A stretch of 64,000 nucleotides of DNA from Candidatus Rifleibacteriota bacterium (GCA_015232575.1 JADFZL010000026.1:13688-77687); one strand, 5' to 3'. Shown: positions 1-58,316, numbered from the stretch's first letter. A program made the numbers and translations. The notes: a model not told the origin generated them from the sequence alone.

Positions 1-1893
1 GGTATAATTGGAATGGCTGGAATTTTGCAGGATACAGACCTTGATCCAGAGCAGCGGGAGTTTGCTGATACGATTAAGTCATGTTCTGAATCGCTTCTTA
101 CAATAGTAAATGACATTCTCGATTTTTCCAAAATTGAGGCGGGTAAGCTTGACATAGAAATAATACCTTTTGAAATCAGACTTGTGCTGGACGATCTGGT
201 TTCCCTCATGTCCGTAAAAGCAAAGGAAAAATGTATTGGTTTTACATGTACTCTTGATCCAAAAATTCCAAAGACCCTCCTCGGTGATCCAGGAAGAATT
301 AGACAAATTCTTTTTAACCTTGTCGGGAACTCAATCAAGTTTACTTCTAAAGGCGATGTCCTTGTTTATATCATTTCAGAAAACCAGACTGAAGACAAAA
401 TCAGATTGAAGTTTTCAGTAGCAGACACTGGAATAGGTATTCCTGAAGAAATGAAATCCCGTCTTTTCAAGCCCTTTTCACAAGTAGATGCGTCAACAAC
501 AAGAACTTTTGGTGGTACAGGACTCGGACTTGCAATTTGCAAAAGACTTGTTGAAATGATGAATGGTGATATTTCTTTTGAAAGCAAGCCGAATGAGGGT
601 TCAACGTTCTTTTTCACTGCAGAATTAGGTATCAGTAAAAAAATCGAATCTAAGGATGAACAAACCCTACCCAATCTTCATGGCAAAAAAATACTGATTG
701 TTGATGACAACTCAACGAATAGAAAAATCTTGTGCGAATTACTCAAGAATTGGCATTTCAAGTTTGAGGAAGCTTCTGATGCCAATGAAGCCATTTCTCT
801 GCTGAAAAGTGCAAAGCGCTCTGGCATGCCATTTGATCTGGCAATTCTTGACATGGTCATGCCACAAACTGATGGTGAAATGCTCGGAGCAAAGATAAAA
901 GAAGATCCGGAAATTTCAGACATTATAATCATCATGCTGACTTCTTTTGGACGGCGAGGAGATTTAGACAGACTTTCTAAAATTGGATTTGCCGGATATC
1001 TGAACAAACCAATTAAACCTTCCCAGCTTTTCGATTGCCTTGTCTCTGTTATTGGAAGCACCCCTTCAAACAGCTGCAATAAAATAGTTTCCACATTTCC
1101 TTTGACGCCTGAAAGAAAAAGACAGGTGAAAATCCTTCTTGCAGAAGACAACACTACTAATCAGAAGGTTGCAGTAAGAATCCTTCAAAATCTTGGTTAC
1201 AATGCAGATGTTGTAAATAACGGGAAAGAGGCGCTGAGAGCACTGGAAATCTCTGAGTATGACCTGATTCTGATGGATGTACAGATGCCTGAAATGGACG
1301 GTCTTTCAGCTACTTCCCTTATAAGAAGCGGTGCATCGGGTGAGAAAAAGAAATATGTTCCAATTATAGCAATGACCGCACATGCAATGCGTGGAGATAA
1401 AGACAGGTGCATTGAACATGGAATGGATGATTATCTTTCAAAACCGGTAAAACCCTCAGAATTATCCGAAATGATACAAAAATGGGCTCTTGGTAAAGCT
1501 GACAGTGAACTTAAACCGGCTGGTAAAACTTTTACACCAAGGGAAGAAATTTTCGATAAACCGGGAATGCTTGAAAGGCTTGGTAAAGACGATCTGCTTT
1601 TAAAGGAAATCATAGATGTTTTCCTTGATGACGTGCCTAAGCAACTTGATTCACTAGGAAAAGCAATAATTGAAAATGATTTCCTGAAACTTACAAAGTT
1701 TGCACATCGGTTAAAAGGAGCTGCAATGAATGTTGGGGCTATTTCACTTCATAAAGCGGCATTTCAGCTTGAGAAGGCGGCTGAGAAGAAAGACAGCAAT
1801 TTTACAAACGTTTCTTTTGAAAATGTAAAGATGGAATTCGAAGAATTTAAAAAAATGCTTTACATCACCGGAGTATTGCCCTCAATTCCTTAA
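1..1893 (+). CDS. hybrid sensor histidine kinase/response regulator, 5'-partial (HisKA - HATPase_c - REC - REC - Hpt)
   Basis: Reading frame is open from nt 1. HisKA-like dimerization helix (EQREFADTIKSCSESLLTIVNDILDFSKIEAGKL), ATPase G-boxes (DTGIGIPEE; GGTGLGLAICKRLVEMMNG), two receiver domains (KILIVDDNSTNRKIL...DLAILDMVMP; KILLAEDNTTNQKVA...DLILMDVQMPEMDG), C-terminal Hpt (HRLKGAAMNVGA). Confidence 0.85.
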   Translation, partial: GIIGMAGILQDTDLDPEQREFADTIKSCSESLLTIVNDILDFSKIEAGKLDIEIIPFEIRLVLDDLVSLMSVKAKEKCIGFTCTLDPKIPKTLLGDPGRIRQILFNLVGNSIKFTSKGDVLVYIISENQTEDKIRLKFSVADTGIGIPEEMKSRLFKPFSQVDASTTRTFGGTGLGLAICKRLVEMMNGDISFESKPNEGSTFFFTAELGISKKIESKDEQTLPNLHGKKILIVDDNSTNRKILCELLKNWHFKFEEASDANEAISLLKSAKRSGMPFDLAILDMVMPQTDGEMLGAKIKEDPEISDIIIIMLTSFGRRGDLDRLSKIGFAGYLNKPIKPSQLFDCLVSVIGSTPSNSCNKIVSTFPLTPERKRQVKILLAEDNTTNQKVAVRILQNLGYNADVVNNGKEALRALEISEYDLILMDVQMPEMDGLSATSLIRSGASGEKKKYVPIIAMTAHAMRGDKDRCIEHGMDDYLSKPVKPSELSEMIQKWALGKADSELKPAGKTFTPREEIFDKPGMLERLGKDDLLLKEIIDVFLDDVPKQLDSLGKAIIENDFLKLTKFAHRLKGAAMNVGAISLHKAAFQLEKAAEKKDSNFTNVSFENVKMEFEEFKKMLYITGVLPSIP

Positions 1894-3756: not shown

Positions 3757-4242
3757 GTGTCATATATTGGTCAAGTAATTGAATTTAAAAACGATTCAGC
3801 TGTAATAGAGATAGGTGTTTTCAGTTCATGTAATAAATGCAGTGGATGCGGTGGTAAAAGCATTTTTGCAGGTTCGTCTGACAAGAAAAGAACTATTATC
3901 GCAAAGACCGGAAATCATTCGCTTCTGAAAGGTGACTTTGTTGAGGTTTCTCCAAAACCCGGCGCCCAATCAATGGCAGCACTTCTTGTATTTGGCATTC
4001 CATTATTCTTTTTCTTCATCGGACTTGTTTTCGGAACGTCTATACTTTCCATGTTCATTCAAATTGAGGCAAAAGACTGGATAAATCTTCTGCTTGGCTT
4101 TCAAGGATTGATAATGGGTTTTGCAGTATCTTTTCTGATAATAAAAATTGCCGGATTCGATTTTTTCATGCTTCAGGTAGAAAGAAAGATTTCCGAGGAA
4201 GAAATTAAAAACGCCGGGTCCTGTGATTTGGCTTCCCGCTAA
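3757..4242 (+). CDS. RseC/MucC-family protein (SoxR-reducing system / sigma-E positive regulator family)
   Basis: N-terminal G-V-x-E...CNKCSGCGG cysteine cluster followed by two hydrophobic helices, the typical RseC layout. Confidence 0.55.
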   Translation: MSYIGQVIEFKNDSAVIEIGVFSSCNKCSGCGGKSIFAGSSDKKRTIIAKTGNHSLLKGDFVEVSPKPGAQSMAALLVFGIPLFFFFIGLVFGTSILSMFIQIEAKDWINLLLGFQGLIMGFAVSFLIIKIAGFDFFMLQVERKISEEEIKNAGSCDLASR

Positions 4243-4808
4243 TAATTATTAACAACGTCTTCGGAGGGACGAAAACGCGGATCTTTTACTGCTTCGCTTT
4301 CTTCTTTTATTACAACAAGCACGGTCTGCTTATGTGATTGGGTCTTTCTACTGCCAGCTGGTTCAATTTCCGTAAGAATCTCAAGAATATAAGTACCCGT
4401 TGAGGTTGTATTTCCGGCAGTCGTCCCCTCAGAAATCTTAAATTCCTTGAGATGTTTTGTAAGGATTTGAGTTTTTCCATTTTCAACTCTTTCAAGTATG
4501 GGCGGAACAAACTTGTAGGAAATGTCCAAAAGGGCAACTCCTGATGGTTTTTTCAGTTCAAGTGTACTGTTTGAGTATTTAAAGGTACCCCTTCTGGCAG
4601 ACACGATATCTCTTTCAAGCGCTCTCAATGATATTTCGGCCTCGCCTGTCACAGCAGCTCTGGCTGCAGAAATAGACTGGTTCTCCTGAGCGCTTCTGAG
4701 AATGTAAAAAGCCCCTCCGCTGAGAATAACAAAAAGAAAAAGAGCGATAATGGTTTCGACAACAGTAAACGCCTTTTTGGTTAATCCTGAAGAACCCATA
4801 AAAAACAT
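4239..4808 (-). CDS. prepilin-type N-terminal cleavage/methylation domain protein (pseudopilin / minor pilin)
   Basis: N-terminus MFFMGSSGLTKKA|FTVVETIIALFLFVIL: class-III signal with Phe at +1, Glu at +5 and a hydrophobic helix. Confidence 0.7.
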   Translation of the reverse strand: MFFMGSSGLTKKAFTVVETIIALFLFVILSGGAFYILRSAQENQSISAARAAVTGEAEISLRALERDIVSARRGTFKYSNSTLELKKPSGVALLDISYKFVPPILERVENGKTQILTKHLKEFKISEGTTAGNTTSTGTYILEILTEIEPAGSRKTQSHKQTVLVVIKEESEAVKDPRFRPSEDVVNNY

Positions 4809-5224
4809 AATTCCTCTTTCTTCTTTTCGTTATTGTTTTTTGTCCAGCAAATTGTTGCTTTTATTTCAGAAATCGTCTTTTCAGAATTGTTGAATTTAGC
4901 TTTAACAAAGAGTTCAAAATCTTTTTGAGCTTTCTGAATATCAAGAATTTTCTGCAGATTCGTAATGTAAAACTGGCCGGGCATGTCAAATTCAGTTTGA
5001 GGAGCAAAAGACAGCTTCTGGAATTCCTTGTATGACTGGCTCATTACTTCGTTTTTCAAAGAATTCAGGATTTCCCTTGCCATAGCAAGCTTTGATGTTT
5101 CAACTGCTGTGGCAGAATATCCTGAGATGCTCTTGTAAATTGGAATCAGTCCAAGAATAAGGATAAAAATTGCAATTGTTATTTCCAAAATGGATAAACC
5201 AGAATCATATCTTCTGATATTCAC
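4781..5224 (-). CDS. prepilin-type N-terminal cleavage/methylation domain protein (pseudopilin / minor pilin)
   Basis: MNIRRYDSG|LSILEITIAIFILILGLI: G at -1, E at +5, hydrophobic helix. Confidence 0.7.
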   Translation of the reverse strand: MNIRRYDSGLSILEITIAIFILILGLIPIYKSISGYSATAVETSKLAMAREILNSLKNEVMSQSYKEFQKLSFAPQTEFDMPGQFYITNLQKILDIQKAQKDFELFVKAKFNNSEKTISEIKATICWTKNNNEKKKEELCFLWVLQD

Positions 5225-5242
5225 AAATAATCCCTCTTCAAA

Positions 5243-7693
5243 TTAATTCTTTGCATAGTCAAAGCGTGTCCACCTGGCACCAATTGAGCAGAAATATCTT
5301 TTCGGCTCATATTTCCCAACATCCCTCATCATTGCAAGCATCGTCGGAGAAAGCGAGTGAGATTCATAAAAAACCTCAATTCCATCAACCGATTTTCTAT
5401 CAAATTGATTAATAACTAAATTCCCTTTAATAGTCAAGTTATTTCCAGATTTATTCATTATACACTGATTTGAAAAACATGCTGCCTCAATAACACACGA
5501 ATTATGAACAAGAATAGCTCCTCTTCTGGCAATCAGTGAAAACACCGTTGGGGAATCTGAAGAATGCACTCGTCTTATATCAGCGTAAACATCGATCACA
5601 TCTTTTGCTACGAGAATTCCCCTACCCTTGACTTTCATTGGCGAACTGATTTTCAGATTTCCCTTGATATATGTAACACCATTACATAAGAATGTACCAT
5701 CTGCGTCAAAGCGCTGAGAGTCTGCCCAGAAATCTGATTCATTCTCATAAAAATAATTTGCCTTTTTTGCATACTGAAGCGGGCTGTACAAATTCGCCGG
5801 AAGATTAGCTGAAATATTTGGGTTCCAGCGGCTGGTGTCTGATGTGTCATAGGCAGGGTAATCCGGTAATCCGTATGGAACTTTTCCAATTTTATGGTTT
5901 GAATAAATCATTGTTTTATCGTCACTATAGTCATGTTCGGGTTGTACTTGCCCTGCAAATCGGGAATACTTCATGTCAAGATAACCTTCCAGTTTCAGTG
6001 AAAGTGGGTATTCGAGATGAAATTTTCCAAATAAAAGAACAGGGTTGGATAATTCTTCGTTAAATGAGATTATTTTCTTCAGTTCCTGACAACCTGGTCC
6101 GAATGTTTCTGAAAAATTGTCTAATTTTCCAGTATATGGAAAATCGAACCAGTAAAGCGGAGGTGGCGAATCACGCCAGGTTGCACTGAAAATACAGTTA
6201 AAAGTTTTAGCAGCTTTTTTATCCATTAACAGGGCATTGAACTCTGAAGAAAGTGGATCATTGGGAGTTCCAAGATAGATCGGTATTTCCATAGCTTTTG
6301 GTCCGGAATAATTCAGACGAACCATACCTGGAAAAGATGCAACCGACTCAAGGTTCGTAGTGGCATTTGCAGAAAAACCATCCGAAAGCTTTAAATACTC
6401 GCCACCTGGAAGATTATGTATTGTCATGGTAGCAGCCTGAGCTGGGTCCTGGAATTTCAGCTCGCTTCCTATTCCAGTCGGGACAGGGTCTGGTGATTCA
6501 ACAGCCCGTGAAGAATTGGCAACAAAGAAGGTATATTCCGGAGCGACCGGCATTGTATCTGAAACTTTTAAATCTTTTTCGGCAATCAGAATTCTTCTTA
6601 CAGGAACCAGATTAGCAGCAGGTTTGAATTCGACTATTGCCATGAAACGTATTTTCCCTGTTTTTTCAACAAAAGTATCATTTTTAAAGGAATTTGGTAC
6701 AGAATTTTTTATTACAGATGGAAGATTCTGAAATCGCAGACTGGCTGCCTGAAAAAGATAAGATGTGTTCCAGGAAATACTTTCCCAGCCAGTATTCATG
6801 AGTTTAGCGACAAGATTCGGCATTGAAAAGCTTCCGCCAACATCATCAAGTTTAAGGAATTTTTTGACAAGATCGTTGCAGTCTATTTCTCCATTCAGGG
6901 TCCATGTTAAAAGCGCTACATCAATTTCAATTTTATAGGCAATTACAGCAGGAGCTTTCTGCGAAAGGAAAAGTGTAACGTCCACAGCAGGAGGTCCTGG
7001 AACATCATGTGAAGGAGGTACAGGCAATTTGAAAGTCAATGTATAATCACTTGATAAATCGTTTTTAAGATTCTTGGGTGAACCACCTGAATATGAAAAT
7101 ATTGTGTCATAAAATTTGCCGGGATCGCCATGTGCCGGAGTTGATTTCTCTGAAATTCCGGTAACTGAATAATTTGGATCTTTCGAAGTTATTGCTGAGG
7201 CTGAAGAAATTAGTATATTCAGTGTTACTGAAGCAGTCCCGCCGAGATTTTGTATTACACTGCCGAGCGGTGAAAGAATTGGACAGGTTGAAGAATACTG
7301 ATAAGCAACCAAAAGATCGCTGTTAAGTTTTAATGGAGCATCAAGTCCGGATGTTGAACCAAGTGTTCCAGGAGTAACTCCGGCAGATGAATCAAGTAGA
7401 AGTGGCACCCGGAGAATCGCATACCATGGATTTGGAGCGGTTTTCTCATTATTCATGTGATCTTTTATGTATCGAATGCCAAGATCAACAGCGGCCTCAG
7501 CTAATGCTTCGGCTTTCTTTTCATTACTCAGTAATTTTGTTGAAAACCTTTTTGCAATAGTAGATCTTGAAAAGAAAAGAACTATTACCAGAAGAATAGC
7601 CAGAATACCAACAACAAAAATAAAAGCAGAACCAATTCGACACTTGCTTTTATTTTTGCAGAGTCTATTTAGTTGGTAATTTTCGATCTGCAC
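5243..7693 (-). CDS. large (816 aa) N-terminally anchored protein of the pseudopilin operon; C-terminal region looks beta-helix-like
   Basis: Single N-terminal TM (GSAFIFVVGILAILLVIVLFF). Co-oriented and overlapping with the upstream and downstream genes. No known family recognised. Confidence 0.6.
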   Translation of the reverse strand: MQIENYQLNRLCKNKSKCRIGSAFIFVVGILAILLVIVLFFSRSTIAKRFSTKLLSNEKKAEALAEAAVDLGIRYIKDHMNNEKTAPNPWYAILRVPLLLDSSAGVTPGTLGSTSGLDAPLKLNSDLLVAYQYSSTCPILSPLGSVIQNLGGTASVTLNILISSASAITSKDPNYSVTGISEKSTPAHGDPGKFYDTIFSYSGGSPKNLKNDLSSDYTLTFKLPVPPSHDVPGPPAVDVTLFLSQKAPAVIAYKIEIDVALLTWTLNGEIDCNDLVKKFLKLDDVGGSFSMPNLVAKLMNTGWESISWNTSYLFQAASLRFQNLPSVIKNSVPNSFKNDTFVEKTGKIRFMAIVEFKPAANLVPVRRILIAEKDLKVSDTMPVAPEYTFFVANSSRAVESPDPVPTGIGSELKFQDPAQAATMTIHNLPGGEYLKLSDGFSANATTNLESVASFPGMVRLNYSGPKAMEIPIYLGTPNDPLSSEFNALLMDKKAAKTFNCIFSATWRDSPPPLYWFDFPYTGKLDNFSETFGPGCQELKKIISFNEELSNPVLLFGKFHLEYPLSLKLEGYLDMKYSRFAGQVQPEHDYSDDKTMIYSNHKIGKVPYGLPDYPAYDTSDTSRWNPNISANLPANLYSPLQYAKKANYFYENESDFWADSQRFDADGTFLCNGVTYIKGNLKISSPMKVKGRGILVAKDVIDVYADIRRVHSSDSPTVFSLIARRGAILVHNSCVIEAACFSNQCIMNKSGNNLTIKGNLVINQFDRKSVDGIEVFYESHSLSPTMLAMMRDVGKYEPKRYFCSIGARWTRFDYAKN

Positions 7694-8538
7694 TTTAAAT
7701 CCTCCCGGATCTGATTAATCTTCCAGTCAAAGTATTTCTGTGCCTTTTCCTGAGCCATTTTTTTTTCTTCTACCAAGTACAATAATATTACACTTCTTTT
7801 CTGAAAATCGTTCATTGCCTGATAATATCGTCTCTGGTCTTTTATCCATTTGAAAAAATTTGTGTTTTTTTCAAGTCCGATGGCAGTTAGATCTTCTTTT
7901 GATTGAAGTTCACCAAGTTGCTGAAGATAATCAAAGTATTTTTCAGGATTACTTAATTCACGTGCACAGTTTGCCAGGTATTTGAGAGCAATACCTTTCA
8001 TTATTGGTGTTGATGAGGAATCTGAAAGCATCTGCAAAAATGAAGTTTCAGCCATTGAAAAGTCATTTTTCTCAGCAAAACTTTTTCCATCCCGGAATGA
8101 TTGACAAAGGCGCAATCTGTAAAGCTCACGTGTCTCAGTCGCAAGATTCGGATTATTTATCTGACTCAGGATAAAATTCTTACGGGCTTCTACGTTTTCC
8201 TTCTCAAAATTGTCGATTTTTTCCTGTGCAACTTTCAAAGCCTCAATATCAGCAGGGCTTAATTCATTAACTGGAGATATTCTTCCGGGCAAAATAGGTA
8301 TATGCTTTGTTTTTAAGGGAAGAGTATTAGAAGGATTCTCCGCATGAATTTCATCTGGAAGAAGCAGAGAAGGTGTTCCAGCACCCGAAGTAAGAAATGA
8401 TTCAGGAAGAATATTTGTCAAATCCTGGGGAAGTTCTTTCTTATCTTCAATAGCGTTCTGGTTGCTTCGAAAAACTAATAAATACATCCAGATTGCTGAC
8501 AAAATCAAAAAAGATACAATCAGGATTCTGTTTTGCAT
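7669..8538 (-). CDS. hypothetical membrane-anchored protein (first gene of the pseudopilin operon), possible TPR-like helical region
   Basis: N-terminal TM (ILIVSFLILSAIWMYLLVF). Overlaps the next gene by 25 nt. Confidence 0.55.
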   Translation of the reverse strand: MQNRILIVSFLILSAIWMYLLVFRSNQNAIEDKKELPQDLTNILPESFLTSGAGTPSLLLPDEIHAENPSNTLPLKTKHIPILPGRISPVNELSPADIEALKVAQEKIDNFEKENVEARKNFILSQINNPNLATETRELYRLRLCQSFRDGKSFAEKNDFSMAETSFLQMLSDSSSTPIMKGIALKYLANCARELSNPEKYFDYLQQLGELQSKEDLTAIGLEKNTNFFKWIKDQRRYYQAMNDFQKRSVILLYLVEEKKMAQEKAQKYFDWKINQIREDLKCRSKITN

Positions 8539-8639: not shown

Positions 8640-8676
8640 ACCAATAAAAAAACCCTCCGATTGCTCGGAGGGATCA
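8640..8676 (-). terminator. Rho-independent terminator of gene 8688-11069
   Basis: On the minus strand: CCCTCCG-agcaat-CGGAGGG (7-bp GC stem) followed by a T-run (TTTTTTTATTGGTTTTTTT). Confidence 0.75.
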
Positions 8677-22900: not shown

Positions 22901-23054
22901 CCAAAAAATACAGATACACGCAAACTCTTGTTATTGAGAAGAAAGTAAAAAATCGCACGCTATTAATTTTTATTGACAGAAAGCTGAAACTGAATTATTT
23001 TCAAACAGATATACTGTGTGGTTGGGAAGAATATTTCGGTTTACGGATGGAAAA

Positions 23055-32591: not shown

Positions 32592-32670
32592 TCATCTGCA
32601 TCAGTCGATAATCCTTATAACAAGTTTTTTGTTAATCAAAGTATCATAAATTTGAGAGTTTGCTGGAAAT

Positions 32671-35153: not shown

Positions 35154-35173
35154 ACAGGAGGATACCCAATCCG

Positions 35174-35536: not shown

Positions 35537-35591
35537 AAACTGTATCATTAACTTACGGAAAACTGATTTTTACCTCAGAAAAAAACGACCA

Positions 35592-48593: not shown

Positions 48594-48596
48594 AAT

Positions 48597-50057: not shown

Positions 50058-50098
50058 AACTATTGGAACAAAAATACTATTTATTCTGTTTTACAAAT
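50058..50098 (+). promoter_or_regulatory. TTGGAACAAA promoter motif (copy A) upstream of the ECF sigma gene
   Basis: CTATTGGAACAAAAATACTATTTATT lies 41 nt upstream of the ATG. GGAAC is the typical ECF -35 core. Confidence 0.45.
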
Positions 50099-50110: not shown

Positions 50111-50662
50111 ATGAGCTTGGAAATAAACAAGGTAAACCCCGGAATTTTGTTAGACGAACAGTTAATAAAAGATTTTCAGAAAGGTTCTGAAGAGGCATTT
50201 GAAGTGCTCTTCGACAGATATTTTCAAAAAATCTTTTGTTATACTTTTTCTTTTTTGAAAGATCATGAAGAAGCAAAAGACTTAACGCAGGAAATATTCT
50301 ATAAATTATACAAAGGGTTGAAAACTTATCAGGAACAAGGGAAATTCAAAAGTTGGATGTATTCTGTCGCAAGACTGACAATCATTAACAGATTCAGAAA
50401 GAAGGGAAAGGAAATAGTCTCTTGTGACCAGGAACTCGTTGAGACAACAGGAATGTCCGATTCGGACAACTCTTCCGGGGGTAATGATTACTTGTCATCT
50501 CTTTCAATTGTCGAAAGAGAAATTATTTCCCTGAGAATTCTGGAAAAACTACCTTACGAAAAAATATCTGAAATTACATCCCTTTCTACCAGCTATTTGA
50601 GGAAAGTTGTTTTCAGAATATTAAATAGGTTCAGATCAGAGGTTTCAAAAAATGAAATGTAA
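50111..50662 (+). CDS. ECF-family RNA polymerase sigma factor
   Basis: Region 2 (FEVLFDRYFQKIFCYTF...DLTQEIF) and region 4 (LPYEKISEITSLSTSYLRKVVFR). Confidence 0.8.
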   Translation: MSLEINKVNPGILLDEQLIKDFQKGSEEAFEVLFDRYFQKIFCYTFSFLKDHEEAKDLTQEIFYKLYKGLKTYQEQGKFKSWMYSVARLTIINRFRKKGKEIVSCDQELVETTGMSDSDNSSGGNDYLSSLSIVEREIISLRILEKLPYEKISEITSLSTSYLRKVVFRILNRFRSEVSKNEM

Positions 50663-51623
50663 TAAAGCCTACAACTGGTTTGAAAATGAAATCAATTCAG
50701 ATCAGGATAATTCTTTTTCTGAAATACAGGAACATGCTGATAAATGCATTGAGTGCAAAAATTTTCTGAAAAATCTGAACTCTATTGAAAGAGAGATTTC
50801 CACATGGAAATTAAGCGAAACAGAGTTTACAAATACCAAATCTAAGTTTTTTGCCGGTTTAAAGAAAAGTGACATTGAAGCAACACCTGAAAAGCATCTC
50901 ATTTCCGGGAAAGTATTGTTATTGTTAACCGCAGTAACATTTTCCACTATTGCACTTTTCACTGAATATCACAAAACACCAATATCTCAGAATACGTCCG
51001 AAAATACGTCCGAAACTGCACCCCAAATTTCTGTTACCGGAAAACAGGCAGTTCTTTTCAAAAAGAATGGTATCCGAATTCCATTATTAAATGAGCCCGT
51101 GCAGGTAAAAGAATCATCGTATTTTCTGGAATTCTCAGATGGTGCGACTCTGGATTTTCAAAAAGCAGGAAAAGTTGAACTCTCCGGCAAAGGAACAATA
51201 CTTCTATCATCTGATGGATTCTCAACAAGCGATGGTAATTTTTCTGTTAATTTTCAGTCAACAAAAACAGATTTAAAGATATATCTTCCGACCGTCATAC
51301 TTAAATCAAACAATGCCGGAATAAATCTCAAGCTAACTTCTGGAAACGGCTACGCTGAAATTTCGAAAGGAAAAGCAGAGTTGTTGTCTCTCTCAACCGA
51401 GTCAGTTATTTCTGCATTTGAAACTGGTGAGAAAATAGTGATTTCATCTGGAACATCCACTAAAACTTCAGAAATTCCTGATGGTGTAAGAATCCCCAAA
51501 ACACATGAATCTTCAAGTTCGGTACAAGAAGAAAAAAATAACACGATTCAGAATAAGAAACATCCACCGAAAAAAACCGGAGAAATTGTCAATGACTCAC
51601 TTTTCGACCAAAGCGAAAAGTAA
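50652..51623 (+). CDS. zf-HC2 anti-sigma factor with TM and periplasmic domain
   Basis: HADKCIECK (H-x3-C-x2-C), TM helix, 11-nt overlap with the sigma gene. Confidence 0.65.
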   Translation: MKCNKAYNWFENEINSDQDNSFSEIQEHADKCIECKNFLKNLNSIEREISTWKLSETEFTNTKSKFFAGLKKSDIEATPEKHLISGKVLLLLTAVTFSTIALFTEYHKTPISQNTSENTSETAPQISVTGKQAVLFKKNGIRIPLLNEPVQVKESSYFLEFSDGATLDFQKAGKVELSGKGTILLSSDGFSTSDGNFSVNFQSTKTDLKIYLPTVILKSNNAGINLKLTSGNGYAEISKGKAELLSLSTESVISAFETGEKIVISSGTSTKTSEIPDGVRIPKTHESSSSVQEEKNNTIQNKKHPPKKTGEIVNDSLFDQSEK

Positions 51624-51793: not shown

Positions 51794-53989
51794 ATGAAAT
51801 TCTCATTCAAAGTGACTGCATTTCTTTTCTTCTCTCTTCTGATTGGCTCTGTTGGTTTCGCTGACGACCTCGGGTCGCTTCAGCAGTTGAGATTAAAAAG
51901 AAGCTGGAAACCTCTGATCGAATTATCTCAAACTGTAATTGCCCGGGAAGAAGCAAAAAAATCTGATCCTGATGCGGCAAGTGGTGATGGCATGCTTCTC
52001 CGATTTGCTTATGAAGGATTATACGAAGGACTGGTAGGCACATCAAGATTTACAGAAGCGCGTGACCTGACTGATAAAATTATTAACAGATTTACGGCAA
52101 CGAGTGAACCGAAAGTTGACACCCCAAGTTATCAGTCTTTGTGGAAATTATGGCAATATCGCGCAAAATCGTTCATTACTGTTCAGGATCAATTATTAAA
52201 AGATAAAATTACTTTTTTAAAGATGGCGCGAGATGCCTTTATCTGGCAAAATAACAACTTGAATGCCATTTTGACCAATCTGGTCAGACATAACAACAAT
52301 TTGAAATCCTTTGAATGCAGAATTCTTAATGCATCCCAGGTGATTGATATTGGAAAATCCATGGAGGGTTGGGCAAATACGATTTCAAATTACGAACAGC
52401 ATACAGACGATGTAATTTGCAACCAGAGAATCAGTTTGTTAGACAGATATGAAAAGAAGGGAATCAAATTAACTTCTGAAATGCTTGATTCTCTTGATTC
52501 TGAATCGCTGACAAAGAAGGAATATGTAGATCAGGTTCTCTTATCAAACCAGCTTATCGCAAGTTGCAGCAGCTTAATGTCTTCAAACTGGAAGTATCTG
52601 CGTGGACAAAAGTATGTTGGATTATACGTTCATGGAAAAGATTTTGAAAGACTTATTGATAATATGAATTCCAGTTTTGAAGATTTTGAAAGATTCCAGC
52701 AGATTAATGAAAAGAGAGTGTTCGCTTTGGATTTCTCCGGATCATATAAAGAATTCCAGAATCGATGCTCAATGGTTAAATTTGCAGATACGATTGCCAT
52801 ATTAAAAAATGTTCCGTTTAGTGGTTCTTCTGATGAAGGCATCAGAATTGAGAATTTACGAAGGTATATTCAGGATAATTCAGCAACCCAAGTTATTACT
52901 TTTTTTGCATCTACTGCAGCAAGAAGTCTTGGAAGCTCCCTTGAAAGCATGTTTTCCGGAATTGAGAATAAGTGGATGGCAGTATCAGGTTTTCTGAAAG
53001 CGAACTCCATACCTGGAGACATGGACTCTGACGGCCAATATTCAGACAATGACATGAAATTGTTCAGGGGCTATTTTGATTCATTTCCAATAATCCTTGC
53101 CAGTACAACAAATTCAGTCATTCACAACATGAATCTGAATGGAGACGCAATCATAAGCCTTGCGGACTATTCCCTCCTGGTGGAAGCTGTAAATGGAAAT
53201 CGCAAGTTTTTCCCGTGTGATTCTGATAACAGAATGGGAGATTTGTCCGGAAATGGTTCACTGGATGAAAATGATGTAGCAAAATTTGCCTATCTTTGCT
53301 TCAATCGCCCCTCTCCAAAGGGCGATATCTTCAGAATCATGAATATTAATAAGCGCAATGTTCCGCAGATACAAGATGTTGTTTCATTGATTGTCAGAAT
53401 GATATTTGAAAACAGTTATGCAATGGGTCGCATCATGACCGACGTGAAATACAATGGTAACAATGTGAATTTCCTTGCGGAAAAACCGGTTCTTGACGTA
53501 AATAAAGACAACAAGATATCTCTTGCTCAGGACTTTGAACTGATGATGCGTCAAGTAGCCTTTCTCTCTGGCACTCCAGTTCCAACAGGTGCGATTGGAA
53601 ATCTTAATAAAGATGAAGATCTTGGCTCTTCAGATCTGTTCCTGTTCGTGTATCATTCATGGGATCTTTTCAAATCATATTTTAAAACTGAAACACCTTT
53701 CAAATGGTTCACTTCAAATGAATATCCAAAATACCAGGCTTATATGTATGATAGATGCAAACTTCTGAATAACAGAAATATCTGCGGACACAAAAACTGT
53801 TCCAATATGTGCAAGGAAACTTTACCTGAGTTAGTTTTCAAAAGAAATGGAGGAGCCCTTGTTGTTACCTTAGCAGGCTACAAAGAACATACATCAATAT
53901 CTTCAACTACACAGGCTCCTGAAGCACCAAAACCTGCCCCTCAGAGCTCTACTCAAAACAATGGCATTGGAAGCAGTGAAGACCTCTGA
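51794..53989 (+). CDS. secreted protein with dockerin-like Ca-binding repeats
   Basis: Signal peptide. DMDSDGQYSDNDMKLF..., LNGDAIISLADYSLL..., DLSGNGSLDENDVAKF... (D-x-D/N-x-DG-x...D pattern). Confidence 0.6.
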   Translation: MKFSFKVTAFLFFSLLIGSVGFADDLGSLQQLRLKRSWKPLIELSQTVIAREEAKKSDPDAASGDGMLLRFAYEGLYEGLVGTSRFTEARDLTDKIINRFTATSEPKVDTPSYQSLWKLWQYRAKSFITVQDQLLKDKITFLKMARDAFIWQNNNLNAILTNLVRHNNNLKSFECRILNASQVIDIGKSMEGWANTISNYEQHTDDVICNQRISLLDRYEKKGIKLTSEMLDSLDSESLTKKEYVDQVLLSNQLIASCSSLMSSNWKYLRGQKYVGLYVHGKDFERLIDNMNSSFEDFERFQQINEKRVFALDFSGSYKEFQNRCSMVKFADTIAILKNVPFSGSSDEGIRIENLRRYIQDNSATQVITFFASTAARSLGSSLESMFSGIENKWMAVSGFLKANSIPGDMDSDGQYSDNDMKLFRGYFDSFPIILASTTNSVIHNMNLNGDAIISLADYSLLVEAVNGNRKFFPCDSDNRMGDLSGNGSLDENDVAKFAYLCFNRPSPKGDIFRIMNINKRNVPQIQDVVSLIVRMIFENSYAMGRIMTDVKYNGNNVNFLAEKPVLDVNKDNKISLAQDFELMMRQVAFLSGTPVPTGAIGNLNKDEDLGSSDLFLFVYHSWDLFKSYFKTETPFKWFTSNEYPKYQAYMYDRCKLLNNRNICGHKNCSNMCKETLPELVFKRNGGALVVTLAGYKEHTSISSTTQAPEAPKPAPQSSTQNNGIGSSEDL

Positions 53990-54329: not shown

Positions 54330-57050
54330 ATGCAACAAATGATCATACGGAGCAGCATAAATGTTCTTGAATATGTAAGAGTACGTGGTATTGTTCTTCC
54401 GATTATTATTGCAATTTTCGCATGTCTCGCAACCTTTTTTTTCTCGCTTAATATGATCAGTCGCAGTCATCTTAATAAGATGCAATACCATGAAATTGAA
54501 GAAGTAGTATCCACAATTGGAAATGATGGTGCCAGATATCTTTCATACTCATTCGAAGACGTTTCACATCTTTCACCTGAAAATAAAGCTAAATTCGATA
54601 AATCATTCGGAAGTCTTTTTTCATCAAATTCACTTAGACCACAAACTATCACATCTGATCAATCAGATTTTTTAAGGGACGTAAAAATTGAGTTTCAGAG
54701 TCTGCTTGAATCATATAATTACAATTATCCCGACCGTCTTTCAAAGCTGTTTTCTCCTTTTGGAAATCACCCGGTTTGCATGAGAATGCAGTTAACCATT
54801 GAACAATCACCAAAGCTCATTCCAACAGGTTTGGTTAATAACATAAGAAATACAGTTCTTCACGAAATACTAAAATGTCCTATCAATGCAATGAATAGCG
54901 AGGAACTTCAGAAATATTCATTTGCCGCGGGAAAAGATGAAACAGAAAAAAATGGTACAATGAAATTTTCCTGCACAGTTTACTTCAGAGGTGTTGCCAG
55001 AGAAGTAACTTTGTCAAAGCAATTCAAGGTTATCAGTATGGTTCCGGGTCCATATTCCCGTTTTACCCTTTTTGCTCCCTCAACACCTGATACAGAAGCT
55101 TATAATGTTATTGAGAACACCTATGCTGGTAATTATCACAGCGATTCGTCATCATATAGCGGTCATAAGAGACTATTACTGATAAATGGAACGGATACCT
55201 TCAGTATAGGTGATGATCCACAATCGACTCTGAATTCACTTTCCAGTGATCTAATAGACTCAGCATCAATGCTTCAGAATCGAGGATGGGTTTTTCTGGG
55301 GAAGCCTCCTCAGGGATGCTTGCGATTAAATATTCCTGCTGGTTTTTTCCCACCAGATCCTGCTTTTCCCATTAATTCACTTTTTGAGGAGCATCCGTCT
55401 CAAATAAACGATGGAATTGGAGGTCAGATATACCTTACCTGGCCACAAAAGATATTAGATTCATCTTCTAATTTTAAACTGGCTGATACTCCAATCGAAA
55501 TTGATGATACCACAATATTTAATCTTGATTCAACAAAGGATGAAAAGCTGCTTTCAAGACTTCTTGGTTTTTTTGTCAAGCAGGGTTCATCCGGTGGCGC
55601 ACACGAGCTTGAACTCTGGCACAAACCAGATCCGACAAAATCTTCAGAAATGGTACCTTTACAGCGGACAGACTGTAAAACATCCTGGATTATGCCATTT
55701 GGCGATAGGCAATATATTTCACGTACCCTGCTCGTGGGTGAAGTACTCGCAAATTTTCTTCAGGTATACATGCTGAATCTTGACAAGAGTATTGCTCCGC
55801 CACAGAAAAATTATGGACTGATAAGAAGATATCTTGGAGCAGACGTTGATCGGGACTATTTTCTGCGTTTTCTGGTTCCTGATTGCTACTGGATTGGTCC
55901 CCTTCCTCCGCCAACTTATGAAAGCTTCATCAATTCGACCGTTCCACACCACCCAAAAGAAGTGCTGGATTCCATTTCTCCGAAAGTAGCACAATTTCCC
56001 CAGCAATCCTTTTGTGGAGTTCCGTTTAACCTTTTATTTGACTGTATGCAGTATTCAGACAGACCTGAATTTATCACCTGGGAAACACTTCCAAACTCGT
56101 CTGGCATTGGAAATATTTTCAACAAAAAAGCCGTTCCAGGTATTCCTGGAAATAAAGTACTAAATGAAGGCATCGGTCCAAATGATTCAACACTACTTGC
56201 ACCGAACACCTTCTGGAAAAACATTCAGCCCGACACAATTCAACTCTGGAAATCAGAGGCAGCAAACTCAATTGCACTTGGTAAAATTGATCGCTGGACA
56301 TATTATTACGGGAATCTGAGCAAACTTCATTTTAACAAATTTAACGCTTCCCCCAACGTTGCAGATAATCTGATTGAAAAATGGGGACTTTTTTCCAGAG
56401 TTACAAATATCATTGATCTGGATAATCCAGATATCCCCCCGGGAAAAGAAATGGCTTACCTGAAAGCGATGGGAATAATTGAAGATGCCGTAATGCCTTC
56501 CGGTGAAAAAGTTTATCGTCTGAACCATTCAGGAGTCTACATGTTTCTGAATAATTCCCCTGCAAGAAATCTGGTTCTGGACCGTCCAATGATATTGAAC
56601 AATTCAGCTATGTTCATTCTTCAAAGGGGAGATTTTGTTATAAAATACGGTGTACAATCACAAGAAACAGACAAAGACGGCATTCCAAAATACCTTTTTT
56701 CGTTTATTGCTCTTGATGGTCATATTCAATTGCCTCCAATTCCCGGAAAATATGCAAAACCTCTTCACGCTTATCTCGTGGCACTGAACAATTCTGTAGA
56801 TGGACACGGAGGAACCATTAAGAACTATGACGGAGCAAGCGGAAATTCCTGCCAGATCTATGTTATCGGAGGCATAGCAGCATTTACTATCGCACCATCA
56901 ACACTTGGAAGAACCATGTTTTCTGATTTTAAAGGCGGAGGGATAATATTGTACAACAGCAATTTCAACCCATGCCTGCCAGCAAATAATGAAAGATATA
57001 AGCTTATCATAGAACAGAGTGATCTTGGAATTATTGTTACAAAGGGTTGA
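54330..57050 (+). CDS. large (906 aa) N-terminally anchored protein, first gene of a second pseudopilin operon
   Basis: TM helix (VLPIIIAIFACLATFFFSL). Followed directly by two prepilin-type genes. Confidence 0.6.
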   Translation: MQQMIIRSSINVLEYVRVRGIVLPIIIAIFACLATFFFSLNMISRSHLNKMQYHEIEEVVSTIGNDGARYLSYSFEDVSHLSPENKAKFDKSFGSLFSSNSLRPQTITSDQSDFLRDVKIEFQSLLESYNYNYPDRLSKLFSPFGNHPVCMRMQLTIEQSPKLIPTGLVNNIRNTVLHEILKCPINAMNSEELQKYSFAAGKDETEKNGTMKFSCTVYFRGVAREVTLSKQFKVISMVPGPYSRFTLFAPSTPDTEAYNVIENTYAGNYHSDSSSYSGHKRLLLINGTDTFSIGDDPQSTLNSLSSDLIDSASMLQNRGWVFLGKPPQGCLRLNIPAGFFPPDPAFPINSLFEEHPSQINDGIGGQIYLTWPQKILDSSSNFKLADTPIEIDDTTIFNLDSTKDEKLLSRLLGFFVKQGSSGGAHELELWHKPDPTKSSEMVPLQRTDCKTSWIMPFGDRQYISRTLLVGEVLANFLQVYMLNLDKSIAPPQKNYGLIRRYLGADVDRDYFLRFLVPDCYWIGPLPPPTYESFINSTVPHHPKEVLDSISPKVAQFPQQSFCGVPFNLLFDCMQYSDRPEFITWETLPNSSGIGNIFNKKAVPGIPGNKVLNEGIGPNDSTLLAPNTFWKNIQPDTIQLWKSEAANSIALGKIDRWTYYYGNLSKLHFNKFNASPNVADNLIEKWGLFSRVTNIIDLDNPDIPPGKEMAYLKAMGIIEDAVMPSGEKVYRLNHSGVYMFLNNSPARNLVLDRPMILNNSAMFILQRGDFVIKYGVQSQETDKDGIPKYLFSFIALDGHIQLPPIPGKYAKPLHAYLVALNNSVDGHGGTIKNYDGASGNSCQIYVIGGIAAFTIAPSTLGRTMFSDFKGGGIILYNSNFNPCLPANNERYKLIIEQSDLGIIVTKG

Positions 57051-57057
57051 CCAGATT

Positions 57058-57561
57058 ATGAAAAAAGCTGTTACATTTGTTGAAGTTATAATAAGCATGG
57101 CAATAGTTGCAATTATTGTTTTTCCATTTCTTGATTTAATGTATTCCTCAAAAAAGAACGCCACAGGCTCAATGTGTGAGCTTCTTGCAACGCACTATTC
57201 TCATGAAATTACCGATCAGCTTGTAATGCTTGGAACATCAATTGGCTATAAAACTCTATGCAGCCAATCGAGTCTCTCAATGAAAGATCTGCTTGAAAGT
57301 CTGAATGATAAACTTCTGGAAAAAGAAAAGATGGCACGTCTTCCACTTAAAAATCTTGATGTTTCAATTCTGGTATCACCAATGGCGCGTTTCTTTGAAG
57401 AAAGAAAAATTACTGTTGAAGAAATACCGGGTAACAGACAGTTAGTAAAGGGGGATTACTTTAAAGTAGTTGTAAAAATCGGTTGGAAATTACCTTCTGT
57501 ACAATTAGACTCCAACACCAGTTACCATGAGGAAGTGGTGTTTTTGAGAAAAACCTTATGA
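57058..57561 (+). CDS. prepilin-type N-terminal cleavage/methylation domain protein (pseudopilin)
   Basis: MKKA|VTFVEVIISMAIVAIIVF: E at +5, hydrophobic helix. Confidence 0.7.
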   Translation: MKKAVTFVEVIISMAIVAIIVFPFLDLMYSSKKNATGSMCELLATHYSHEITDQLVMLGTSIGYKTLCSQSSLSMKDLLESLNDKLLEKEKMARLPLKNLDVSILVSPMARFFEERKITVEEIPGNRQLVKGDYFKVVVKIGWKLPSVQLDSNTSYHEEVVFLRKTL

Positions 57562-58316
57562 AAGCGATTAAATCTGCAAAAATTAGCGAAAATTCAGATT
57601 ACATGAAACAAAATTTATTCAGATCATTCGCTGTTGAAAACAGAGCTTTTACCATTGTTGAGCTTTGTGTAACAATATTGATTGCTGCCTCCATATTGTA
57701 TTTTACTCAAAGTTTTTTTATTTCCGGAGTTAAGCACAGTATTTCAATTACAGAATATCTTGATTCAATTGATCAGGCAAATAAACTGATCTTCTCTATC
57801 CGTCACGATCTTCTCAACTGCAAATCCGTAATAACTCCCGATGATTCCGGAAATCCTATTGAAGCACTTCTGAGCTGTGGTTCGCCAGAACTCCCATCTT
57901 CAGAAACAACGGTATATCCATCCATGCTCATAATCAGCATTGGGGACAACGCAACAATTTCATACCAGATAAACTTTCAAAAGCCTGATGTGACAGGAGT
58001 TGCAAGAATTGAAGAAGAAAAGAAAATAAGTGATAATTCGATATCCAGAAATGTAACCTGGTTTTCGGTTTCAAAAATTCGCACTTTCAAGGTTATTGTA
58101 CTGAAAAACACACATAAAATTGAAAATGTCGGTATGAATACCCGGCATCTTTATCTTGAAATGGAAGTTTGTCCAATGAAAAAATCTGGTGAAACAGATG
58201 AAGAAAATAAAAGGAAGAGTGCAAAACTTATCAATACCATTTCCCCTAATTCATTAGGTTATTCCACCTGGAATTATCATCTTCCAACCAACGGGGAAAG
58301 AATTACGACACCATAA
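57558..58316 (+). CDS. prepilin-type N-terminal cleavage/methylation domain protein (pseudopilin)
   Basis: ...NRA|FTIVELCVTILIAASILYF. The start may be ATG 57603. Confidence 0.65.
   Translation: MKAIKSAKISENSDYMKQNLFRSFAVENRAFTIVELCVTILIAASILYFTQSFFISGVKHSISITEYLDSIDQANKLIFSIRHDLLNCKSVITPDDSGNPIEALLSCGSPELPSSETTVYPSMLIISIGDNATISYQINFQKPDVTGVARIEEEKKISDNSISRNVTWFSVSKIRTFKVIVLKNTHKIENVGMNTRHLYLEMEVCPMKKSGETDEENKRKSAKLINTISPNSLGYSTWNYHLPTNGERITTP

What the first reader, a model, noticed from the sequence alone, without database searches (positions are those of the whole stretch)
4239..8538. Two same-architecture operons: large anchored protein + two prepilin-type pseudopilins, with no pilus machinery nearby
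The minus-strand operon is 289-aa membrane protein, 816-aa N-anchored protein, then two pseudopilins. The second operon at 54330-58316 is a 906-aa N-anchored protein then two pseudopilins. The four small genes carry bona fide class-III signal peptides (A/G at -1, F/L/V at +1, E at +5). Neither large partner matches GspK, PilY1 or another family I can name. No ATPase, platform protein, secretin or prepilin peptidase is in the window. The duplication within 50 kb suggests a modular minor-pilin/tip set, possibly specifying alternative adhesive or secreted-substrate tips for a type IV filament system encoded elsewhere.
Basis: partly seen in the sequence, partly recalled or inferred. Interest (0 to 1): 0.7.

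Follow-up and report, generated by a model that had tools for sequence, protein, structure and literature searches.

The report
Two pilus-tip gene sets in Riflebacteria
Two unrelated-looking gene sets in an uncultured Riflebacteria genome each encode a giant pilin-like protein carrying a beta-solenoid head plus two small minor pilins. They most likely form the cap that starts and tips a type IV filament, which is a known kind of device in a new, unannotated, phylum-specific form.

Summary
All seven ORFs exist at the stated coordinates. The four small proteins carry class III (prepilin) signal sequences, and no filament machinery is in the 64 kb window.

Their N-termini are GspK/PilX-like: a conserved Gly, then a hydrophobic helix, and never Glu at +5. 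The first small gene is PilV/GspI-like and the second is GspJ/ComGF-like. Each cassette is therefore a K/X–I/V–J/W trio, the composition of a type IV filament tip or priming complex.

The two sets are not a recent duplication. Sequence similarity is limited to the alpha-1 helix and the solenoid.

Set 1 (with a TPR membrane protein) is a syntenic gene set found across Riflebacteria. In one rumen MAG it sits directly beside gspE/pilB-type and gspF/pilC-type genes. Set 2 belongs to an expanded paralogue family that sits next to ECF sigma/FecR-like genes and a dockerin-like protein.

Verdict: a new variant of a known kind, of moderate interest.

The parts
7669..8538 (-). First gene of the set 1 operon: a 289-aa protein with an N-terminal membrane anchor and one recognisable TPR motif.
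   Evidence: ORF. A homologue of 258-403 aa lies directly upstream of the large gene in 31 of 33 set 1 loci. Some rumen/gut-associated MAGs have a lipobox-like ...FACSKGC instead of a plain anchor. A profile of 23 members matches consensus TPR proteins through one repeat at profile positions 143-171. No Pfam hit. Its role is inferred only.
5243..7693 (-). Set 1 large subunit (816 aa): a GspK/PilX/ComZ-class modular minor pilin with a C-terminal ice-binding-protein-like beta-solenoid, about residues 670-775, followed by a final strand at 800-815.
4781..5224 (-). Set 1 PilV/GspI-like minor pilin (147 aa) with class III signal SG|LSILE.
   Evidence: Six of 8 family members match TIGR02523 PilV (best E 4.8e-7), 3 match GspI and 2 match XpsI, all below the curated cutoffs. 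The motif is conserved in 26 of 27 orthologues.
4239..4808 (-). Set 1 GspJ/ComGF-like minor pilin (189 aa) with class III signal KKA|FTVVE.
   Evidence: TIGR01711 GspJ E 8.7e-6 over residues 13-73, below cutoff. Pfam N_methyl 16.8 bits against 21.2. Four of 7 members hit GspJ and 3 hit ComGF. The orthologue in L049 passes N_methyl at 26.7 bits.
8653..8672 (-). Terminator-like hairpin plus T-run between the 793-aa gene and the 289-aa gene. It marks the upstream limit of the set 1 operon.
   Evidence: 8-bp stem with 6 GC pairs, followed by TTTTTTTATT.
54330..57050 (+). Set 2 large subunit (906 aa): a modular minor pilin of the same class, with a long alpha-1 helix (22-76) and a C-terminal beta-solenoid (about 717-875) followed by a final strand at 890-905.
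57019..57561 (+). Set 2 PilV/GspI-like minor pilin. The ORF is 180 aa. The likely true start is ATG 57058, giving MKKA|VTFVE.
   Evidence: N_methyl 18.8 bits against 21.2. TIGR02532 15.3 against 16.3. Weak PilV and GspI hits.
57558..58316 (+). Set 2 second minor pilin (252 aa, NRA|FTIVE), in the J/W position.
   Evidence: No HMM hit of its own. It aligns with the J-like proteins of set 2 loci. hhalign to the set 1 J family covers the first 65 mature residues (91%).
50111..51623 (+). ECF sigma factor (50111-50662) and overlapping putative anti-sigma (50652-51623), upstream of set 2.
   Evidence: Sigma70_r2/r4 domains. The same sigma/anti-sigma pair lies beside set 2-type cassettes in L002, L004 and L065, and an ECF-sigma-like match followed by an unexamined 317-aa ORF lies in L060. 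The L065 anti-sigma has a FecR domain, E 3.7e-9. Regulation of the cassette by this sigma is inferred, not shown.
51794..53989 (+). 731-aa secreted protein with a weak dockerin/EF-hand-like region. It is a recurring neighbour of set 2-type cassettes.
   Evidence: Dockerin_1 E 0.01, below cutoff. tblastn relatives lie next to the cassette in L002, L054, L055 and L057. The L002 copy has weak Dockerin_1/EF-hand hits.
50061..50074 (+). ECF-type promoter-like element TATTGGAACAAAAA, 50 nt upstream of the sigma gene. Identical copies are at 51717-51730 (upstream of the 731-aa gene) and 62430-62443 (upstream of a 341-aa ORF).
   Evidence: Three exact copies. About 60 nt of shared sequence lies upstream of the 731-aa and 341-aa genes. 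No copy lies directly upstream of the 906-aa gene.

Best explanation
Each cassette encodes the three subunits of a type IV filament tip or priming complex:
- a very large GspK/PilX/ComZ-class pilin whose pilin fold carries a beta-solenoid head (816 or 906 aa);
- a PilV/GspI-like minor pilin;
- a GspJ/PilW/ComGF-like minor pilin.

The proposed mechanism follows the solved GspK-GspI-GspJ and XcpVWX complexes and work on ComZ, cyanobacterial PilX and Myxococcus minor pilins. None of these steps was tested here.
1. A prepilin peptidase encoded elsewhere cleaves the leaders.
2. The three subunits bundle their N-terminal helices in the inner membrane.
3. The large subunit lacks Glu+5 and is too bulky to sit in the filament body, so it caps the trimer.
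4. The complex primes polymerisation of a major pilin by an ATPase/platform motor encoded elsewhere.
5. The complex ends up at the filament tip, where the solenoid and the extra ~300-residue middle region bind a target or plug the tip.

Set 1, with its TPR membrane protein, appears to be the conserved set of the phylum. Set 2 belongs to an expanded paralogue family that sits next to ECF sigma/FecR-type regulators and a dockerin-like protein. It is therefore probably a conditionally used alternative tip.
For: Shown here:
- The class III motifs are present in the four small proteins and conserved in 52 of 53 orthologues.
- The large proteins have a conserved [KR]G followed by a hydrophobic helix, and none of about 47 family members has Glu at +5.
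- The two AF2 models are confident (pLDDT 81.6 and 85.9; pTM 0.82 and 0.87).
- In both models a last beta-strand follows the solenoid. This is the insertion topology reported for cyanobacterial PilX (10.64898/2026.02.12.705559).
- Members of the first small gene family hit PilV, GspI and XpsI models. Members of the second hit GspJ and ComGF.
- The four-gene set 1 architecture is conserved in most of the 36 tabulated loci across Riflebacteria genomes.
- In L049 the cassette is directly followed by T2SSE+MshEN and T2SSF genes.

Inferred: complex formation, tip location, priming, and the roles of the TPR protein and the ECF sigma.
Against: - No motor, secretin, prepilin peptidase or major pilin is in the window.
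- Only 1 of 53 loci searched at that point has E/F genes within 10 kb. The 12 set 2-type loci fetched later have none.
- I could not scan the source genome, so the existence of a machine in this organism is assumed.
- HMM hits of the window's own small proteins are all below curated cutoffs.
- Foldseek against the PDB gave no significant match for the 816-aa model. ComZ ranked second at E 0.3.
- The cassettes lack a fourth, GspH/FimU-type minor pilin.
- No multimer prediction could be run.
Confidence: 0.72

Rival explanations
1. The cassettes are the GspK-I-J tip of a type II secretion pseudopilus rather than of a surface pilus. The large subunit would contact exoproteins and push them through a secretin. 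The neighbouring dockerin-like protein would be a candidate cargo.
Against: PilV and ComGF score as well as the Gsp models. The T2SSE/MshEN/T2SSF domains do not separate T2SS from T4P. No gspC, D, L, M, G or H is near any of the 65 loci. The best structural analogue, ComZ, and the cyanobacterial PilX proteins belong to pili. No T2SSK domain was found. An 800-900-aa tip with a solenoid head is much larger than any GspK.
Confidence: 0.2
2. The proteins use the prepilin pathway only for membrane insertion and processing. They would stay as a cell-envelope complex not built into any filament, for example a signalling or surface-binding complex tied to the ECF sigma/FecR system or to the neighbouring histidine kinase.
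For: The machinery is absent from nearly all loci. Regulators recur next to the cassettes: ECF sigma/FecR beside set 2 and a hybrid histidine kinase near set 1 in the window, L003 and L049. Precedents for class III signal peptides used outside filaments come from my own general knowledge and were not checked here.
Against: The K/I/J-type composition and the Glu+5 pattern (present in the two small subunits, absent in the large one) are the specific signature of filament tip trimers. The cassette is directly adjacent to and co-oriented with E/F in L049.
Confidence: 0.06
3. The resemblance is coincidental. The large proteins would be ordinary signal-anchored beta-helix adhesins or enzymes, and the small ORFs would be unrelated membrane proteins.
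For: No curated HMM passes its threshold for any window protein. Foldseek was negative.
Confidence: 0.02

Closest known systems
ComZ-PilA2 of Thermus thermophilus (tip-associated competence pilins; PDB 6QVI; PMC6561018)
   Different: The Riflebacteria proteins are 260-390 residues longer than the 518-residue ComZ chain in the PDB entry, with an extra middle region of unknown fold class. There is no sequence similarity (no PDB sequence hit). The domains superpose only separately (rmsd 16-19 Å overall). They come with two small pilins rather than one. DNA binding was not tested.
Cyanobacterial PilX (Com and EPS subfamilies, including HpsA) within the FimT-PilW-PilV-PilX core priming sets (bioRxiv 10.64898/2026.02.12.705559)
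   Same: The preprint describes a pilin fold interrupted by a triangular, ice-binding-protein-like beta-solenoid inserted before the C-terminal strand. It reports two diverged core minor-pilin sets per genome, proposed to prime different filaments on shared machinery. It proposes that the solenoid acts as a tip plug in place of PilY1. All of this parallels what is seen here.
   Different: This is a different phylum, and no NCBIfam HpsA or PilX model matches. The only related hit is a 0.073 match of one J-like member to HpsC. No FimT/GspH-type fourth pilin is in the cassettes. Set 1 adds a TPR membrane protein. Set 2 is linked to ECF sigma/FecR genes.
GspK-GspI-GspJ (ETEC, PDB 3CI0) and XcpX-V-W (PDB 5VTM), the type II secretion pseudopilus tip
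   Different: GspK is far smaller (280 residues in the 3CI0 chain). From general knowledge, its insertion is alpha-helical rather than a solenoid. No T2SSK Pfam domain is detected. The genes are not embedded in a gsp operon.
Multiple minor-pilin/PilY1 sets of Myxococcus xanthus (PMC7541494, PMC8833165, PMC9109919)
   Same: Several alternative tip or priming gene sets per genome are encoded away from the core machine and are differentially regulated.
   Different: Those sets have four minor pilins plus a separate PilY1, which from general knowledge is a beta-propeller protein exported by a Sec signal. Here the large subunit is itself a pilin, and there is no PilY1 domain.
Verru_Chthon cassette (TIGR02600 protein A, with proteins B-D TIGR02598/02599/02596) of Verrucomicrobia
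   Same: From my recollection of the TIGRFAMs descriptions, these are multi-copy cassettes of one very large protein plus small proteins with prepilin-type N-termini, dispersed in the genome. Here, weak N-terminal matches were seen to protein A (E 0.0044) and protein C (E 0.062).
   Different: Scores are far below the cutoffs (14.9 against 332.3 bits). That cassette has three small proteins, and its function is also unknown.
Modular pilins of Streptococcus sanguinis (PilB, PilC; PMC8179133, PMC9934059)
   Different: The grafted modules differ. From general knowledge, those are vWA and lectin modules, not a solenoid. The host is a monoderm, and the genes lie within the pil locus.

Membership tests
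Prepilin-type N-terminal cleavage/methylation domain (Pfam PF07963 N_methyl; TIGR02532) | A short, usually basic leader ending in Gly (or Ala) at -1, a hydrophobic residue at +1, Glu at +5, then about 20 hydrophobic residues. | tested here: met
   Read directly: KKA|FTVVE, SG|LSILE, KKA|VTFVE and NRA|FTIVE. These are the only credible instances in the window. The motif is present in 52 of 53 orthologues.
Prepilin-type N-terminal cleavage/methylation domain (Pfam PF07963 N_methyl; TIGR02532) | An HMM score at or above the curated cutoff. | tested here: inconclusive
   Window proteins score 16.8 and 18.8 bits against 21.2, with two having no hit. TIGR02532 scores 15.3 against 16.3. Among relatives, 26.7 bits passes (L049 229 aa, a set 1 orthologue of the second small gene) and so does 22.5 bits (L065 498 aa, a separate prepilin-like ORF outside the cassette).
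Prepilin-type N-terminal cleavage/methylation domain (Pfam PF07963 N_methyl; TIGR02532) | Actual cleavage and N-methylation by a prepilin peptidase. | not testable with these tools
   This needs N-terminal sequencing or mass spectrometry. No peptidase gene is in the window.
GspK / T2SS minor pseudopilin K (Pfam T2SSK) | A pilin-like N-terminus lacking Glu+5. | tested here: met
   [KR]G followed by a hydrophobic helix. Glu at +5 occurs in 0 of about 47 family members.
GspK / T2SS minor pseudopilin K (Pfam T2SSK) | The T2SSK sequence domain, meaning the GspK-specific insertion. | tested here: not met
GspK / T2SS minor pseudopilin K (Pfam T2SSK) | Encoded together with I-type and J-type pseudopilins. 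| tested here: met
   The gene order large, I/V-like, J-like holds in both sets and across loci.
ComZ / beta-solenoid PilX-type tip pilins | A pilin fold with a large beta-solenoid inserted before the C-terminal beta-strand. | tested here: met
ComZ / beta-solenoid PilX-type tip pilins | Sequence homology to ComZ or to cyanobacterial PilX/HpsA. | tested here: not met
   No PDB sequence hit. No NCBIfam HpsA or PilX hit.
ComZ / beta-solenoid PilX-type tip pilins | Tip location and ligand binding (DNA or polysaccharide). | not testable with these tools
   This requires experiment.
PilY1 / PilC tip adhesins | A C-terminal beta-propeller (Pfam Neisseria_PilC) on a non-pilin, Sec-exported protein. 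| tested here: not met
   No such Pfam hit. The models show a solenoid rather than a propeller, and a pilin-type N-terminal helix.
Verru_Chthon cassette (TIGR02600/02598/02599/02596) | HMM scores above the curated cutoffs for proteins A-D. | tested here: not met
   Protein A scores 14.9 bits against 332.3, covering the N-terminal 63 residues only. Protein C has E 0.062 in one member.
Type IV filament system (complete machine) | An assembly ATPase, platform protein, prepilin peptidase and major pilin in the same genome. | tested here: inconclusive
   All are absent from the window. T2SSE+MshEN and T2SSF lie adjacent to the orthologous cassette in one other Riflebacteria MAG (L049). The source MAG could not be scanned.

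The most novel reading that the evidence does not exclude
Riflebacteria may run one type IV filament machine with exchangeable tips. A conserved set 1 complex, assisted by a dedicated TPR membrane or lipoprotein, would be the default primer. An expanded family of set 2 complexes would be switched in by ECF sigma/FecR-type cell-surface signalling. Each set 2 complex would be paired with a calcium-binding dockerin-like protein that docks on the tip as an adhesin or is delivered as cargo. That would be an envelope-signal-controlled, programmable pilus tip. The ~300-residue middle region of the large subunit would be a new ligand-binding or catalytic module.
Probability: 0.15. Interest if true: 0.65.

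Novelty: new variant of a known kind. Interest (0 to 1): 0.42.

Why it matters
- **Function for an unannotated family.** The large-protein family has at least 369 representatives at 50% identity. It has no Pfam or NCBIfam model and appears confined to the uncultured phylum Riflebacteria. This work gives it a concrete functional assignment.
- **A broader pattern.** A beta-solenoid-bearing PilX/GspK-class pilin as the filament cap, with more than one priming set per genome, was known from Thermus and cyanobacteria. Seeing it in a third, unrelated lineage suggests it is an ancient and general alternative to PilY1-type tips.
- **A testable regulatory idea.** The recurrent pairing of one cassette family with ECF sigma/FecR regulators and a dockerin-like protein suggests how tip identity might be controlled.
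- **Annotation.** The alignments made here could seed family models, so these genes stop being labelled hypothetical.

Tried and rejected
- **Recent duplication:** rejected. BLASTP between the two sets finds nothing. hhalign finds only the solenoid and the alpha-1 helix.
- **Curated families for the large proteins:** none found. Pfam and NCBIfam on the window proteins and Pfam on 55 relatives gave nothing. One distant relative had a weak DUF7305 hit.
- **Sequence search of the PDB** with profiles of all four protein families: nothing relevant.
- **Foldseek against the PDB** for the 816-aa model: nothing significant.
- **AlphaFold database search:** unavailable, so the nearest annotated predicted structures are unknown.
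- **Third word-indexed homologue search** with a 55-sequence alignment: returned only the 5 proteins already known.
- **Reaching the rest of the source contig or MAG** by exact-protein look-up: failed four times, as did the look-up for paralogue P0007. The genome-wide machinery question therefore stays open.
- **Literature on Riflebacteria pili:** nothing useful. No paper mentions the Verru_Chthon cassette.
- **RNA genes:** the Rfam and tRNA scans of the window were empty.
- **ECF promoter in front of the 906-aa gene:** not found. The motif sits in front of the sigma gene, the 731-aa gene and a 341-aa ORF instead.
- **PilY1 identity:** rejected, because there is no propeller and the N-terminus is pilin-type.

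Full report
**Observation**

On the minus strand, a terminator-like hairpin at 8672-8653 is followed by four tightly packed genes:
- 289 aa (7669-8538)
- 816 aa (5243-7693)
- 147 aa (4781-5224)
- 189 aa (4239-4808)

On the plus strand lie three genes:
- 906 aa (54330-57050)
- 180 aa (57019-57561, more likely starting at ATG 57058)
- 252 aa (57558-58316)

The four small proteins read KKA|FTVVE, SG|LSILE, KKA|VTFVE and NRA|FTIVE, each followed by a hydrophobic helix. A motif scan over all ORFs of 50 aa or more in the window returns these four plus three implausible hits.

Curated HMMs do not quite reach threshold on the window proteins. N_methyl scores 16.8 and 18.8 bits against 21.2, and TIGR02532 scores 15.3 against 16.3. 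The motif is nevertheless conserved in 26 of 27 and 26 of 26 orthologues, mostly with the canonical Gly at -1. An orthologue passes N_methyl at 26.7 bits.

Pfam scans of every ORF of 150 aa or more show several gene classes:
- flagellar switch genes
- a chemoreceptor
- MutS and UvrC
- two ECF sigma factors
- radical SAM enzymes

None is an ATPase, platform protein, secretin or prepilin peptidase of a type IV filament system.

**Source and distribution**

The 816-aa protein is identical to HQM10_24920 of a Candidatus Riflebacteria MAG. A profile search of 1.84 billion representative proteins finds 369 relatives of the large proteins at E ≤ 0.001 and 88 at E ≤ 1e-30. Most are 770-960 aa and match end to end. 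Every named source is Riflebacteria, apart from one bin labelled Erysipelotrichia.

A scan of one genome per species returns 48 loci. Nearly all are Riflebacteria, Ozemobacteraceae or Rifleibacterium MAGs. A few bins carry other labels, which I did not verify. None of 55 family members has any Pfam domain.

**What the proteins are**

With alignments of 24 and 31 relatives, AlphaFold2 gives confident models: pLDDT 81.6 and pTM 0.82 for the 816-aa protein, and pLDDT 85.9 and pTM 0.87 for the 906-aa protein. Both begin with a long N-terminal helix. Both end with a run of short strands followed by one last long strand.

| Match | 816-aa model | 906-aa model |
|---|---|---|

The 906-aa model also hits GspI/XcpV/EpsI and Neisseria PilX.

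ComZ is described as a pilin with a large beta-solenoid that can only fit at the pilus tip (PMC6561018). A 2026 preprint describes cyanobacterial PilX proteins as a pilin fold interrupted, before the last strand, by an ice-binding-protein-like solenoid proposed to plug the tip (10.64898/2026.02.12.705559).

The N-termini fit this class. A conserved [KR]G is followed by a hydrophobic helix, and none of about 47 members has Glu at +5. From general knowledge, this is a feature of GspK and PilX.

The small proteins also sort cleanly, although all hits are below curated cutoffs. Members of the first family hit PilV (6 of 8, best E 4.8e-7), GspI and XpsI. Members of the second hit GspJ (4 of 7, best E 8.7e-6) and ComGF.

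Each cassette is therefore a K/X–I/V–J/W trio. That is the composition of the solved GspK-I-J and XcpX-V-W tip complexes.

Cautions:
- Foldseek found nothing significant.
- The overall ComZ superposition has a large rmsd.
- Solenoids score well against each other.
- About 300 residues in the middle of each large protein remain unassigned.

**Relation between the two sets**

They are not a recent duplication. BLASTP finds nothing. Profile comparison links the large proteins only through about 96 solenoid columns (88%). It links the small ones only through the alpha-1 helix, and nothing remains once that helix is removed. Their contexts also differ.

Set 1:
- The four-gene unit is TPR-anchored protein, large protein, I-like, J-like. 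It recurs with the same gene order in most of the 36 tabulated loci that extend far enough.
- Several loci keep the same neighbours: a SpoU methylase, an FMN oxidoreductase, an S49 peptidase, a hybrid histidine kinase and a Gly-zipper protein.
- The upstream protein is a membrane-anchored protein with one clear TPR motif. Some rumen/gut-associated MAGs have a lipobox-like sequence at its N-terminus instead.
- In a rumen MAG (L049) this cassette is followed directly by five genes: a T2SSE ATPase with an MshEN domain, a T2SSF platform protein, a response regulator with GGDEF/EAL domains, an Hpt protein and a hybrid kinase.
- That is the only locus of 53 with motor genes within 10 kb.

Set 2:
- This family is expanded. 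A paralogue, HQM10_13385, is in the same MAG. Two copies lie on one contig in L002 and in L059/L065.
- An ECF sigma factor with a (FecR-like) anti-sigma gene lies beside the cassette in the window, L002, L004 and L065. L060 has an ECF-sigma-like match followed by an unexamined 317-aa ORF.
- A dockerin/EF-hand-like secreted protein lies beside it in the window, L002, L054, L055 and L057.
- In the window, an exact 14-mer containing a GGAAC element occurs upstream of the sigma gene, the dockerin-like gene and a 341-aa ORF. It does not occur directly upstream of the 906-aa gene. Control of the cassette by this sigma factor is therefore only an inference from gene neighbourhood.

**Mechanism proposed**

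The following is inferred from the solved Gsp/Xcp tip complexes, from ComZ, from cyanobacterial PilX and from Myxococcus priming complexes (PMC7541494).
1. A prepilin peptidase processes the three proteins.
2. They bundle their alpha-1 helices in the inner membrane.
3. The large Glu+5-less subunit caps the trimer.
4. The complex primes polymerisation of a major pilin by a motor encoded elsewhere.
5. The complex is carried to the tip, where the solenoid and the unassigned middle region bind a target or plug the filament.

Set 1 would be the conserved primer and set 2 a conditionally used alternative. I put this at about 0.72.

The main rival, at about 0.2, is that the filament is a secretion pseudopilus with the dockerin-like protein as cargo. 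The data here cannot separate the two, because the E/F domains, the PilV-versus-GspI hits and the K-I-J composition fit both.

A non-filament envelope complex (about 0.06) and pure coincidence (about 0.02) are disfavoured. The Glu+5 pattern, the conserved gene order and the L049 adjacency all argue against them.

**Comparison and novelty**

The kind is known from several systems:
- tip or priming trios and quartets of minor pilins
- modular pilins (PMC8179133)
- beta-solenoid PilX/ComZ caps
- multiple sets per genome, in Myxococcus (PMC7541494, PMC9109919) and in cyanobacteria (the 2026 preprint)

By curated-model score or sequence-level search, the proteins are not members of GspK, PilY1, ComZ, HpsA or the Verru_Chthon cassette families.

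New here:
- a phylum-specific, unannotated pair of families with 800-900-aa caps
- a three-pilin core without a GspH/FimU-type subunit
- a dedicated TPR partner in set 1
- a recurrent ECF sigma/FecR and dockerin-like neighbourhood for set 2

I rate this a new variant of a known kind, with interest about 0.42.

**Open**

I could not scan the source genome for the machine. I could not run multimer predictions or search the AlphaFold database.

Noticed in passing
window 50061-50074, 51717-51730, 62430-62443: There are three exact copies of TATTGGAACAAAAA, which contains a GGAAC -35-like element. They lie 50-90 nt upstream of the ECF sigma gene, the 731-aa dockerin-like gene and a 341-aa ORF (62517-63542). 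The last two share about 60 nt of upstream sequence. This looks like a small ECF regulon that includes an otherwise unannotated gene 8 kb away.
   Followed up: partly
window 8688-11069 (-): This 793-aa protein has a signal sequence, a long run of GNQ(S/N)GQ-type repeats (18/36/54-nt tandem repeats at 9785-10171) and a C-terminal glycine-zipper region. A homologue sits next to the set 1 cassette in L001 on the opposite strand, and a Gly-zipper protein lies near it in L005. ORFs of similar size lie upstream in many other loci but were not compared. A terminator separates the gene from the operon.
   Followed up: partly
L049 10407-18660: In a rumen Riflebacteria MAG, the set 1 cassette is followed by five genes: a T2SSE ATPase with a MshEN domain, T2SSF, a response regulator with GGDEF/EAL domains, an Hpt protein and a hybrid histidine kinase. 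From general knowledge, MshEN domains can bind c-di-GMP, which hints at second-messenger control of the filament. A hybrid kinase with an Hpt domain also lies near set 1 in the window (13-1893) and in L003.
   Followed up: partly
L038, L050, L002, L059/L065: Some genomes carry two cassettes side by side. They are convergent in L038 and tandem in L050 and L002. Two lie on one 74 kb contig in L059/L065. L065 also has extra prepilin-like ORFs of 227, 464 and 498 aa.
   Followed up: no
window 54330-57050: The 906-aa protein had no identical entry in the protein collection. Its best hit was 38% identical. The 816-aa protein from the same window was found at 100%. The public annotation of this MAG may lack or miscall this gene.
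   Followed up: no
window 54013-54050: A 12-bp inverted repeat (CAGACCTGTCCAG...CTGGACAGGTCG) with a 13-nt loop and a T-rich tail lies between the 731-aa gene and the 906-aa gene. It may be a terminator that the scan missed because of the loop size. If so, the set 2 cassette would be a separate transcription unit.
   Followed up: no
window 31902-36323: A flagellar block holds fliL, fliM, a fliY-type switch gene (CheC + FliN domains) and fliO. It lies next to a DUF362 Fe-S protein gene and mutS. A methyl-accepting chemotaxis protein gene lies at 23016-25325.
   Followed up: no
window 47259-49958: Two adjacent paralogous genes encode B12-binding radical SAM enzymes (444 and 453 aa). They lie just upstream of the ECF sigma module.
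   Followed up: no
loci L022, L030, L037, L044, L046, L048: Contigs carrying clear homologues of the Riflebacteria-specific large protein are labelled Methylomirabilis, Erysipelotrichia, Avigastranaerophilus, Clostridiaceae or Fastidiosipila. These are probably mis-binned or mislabelled MAGs rather than real occurrences outside the phylum.
   Followed up: no
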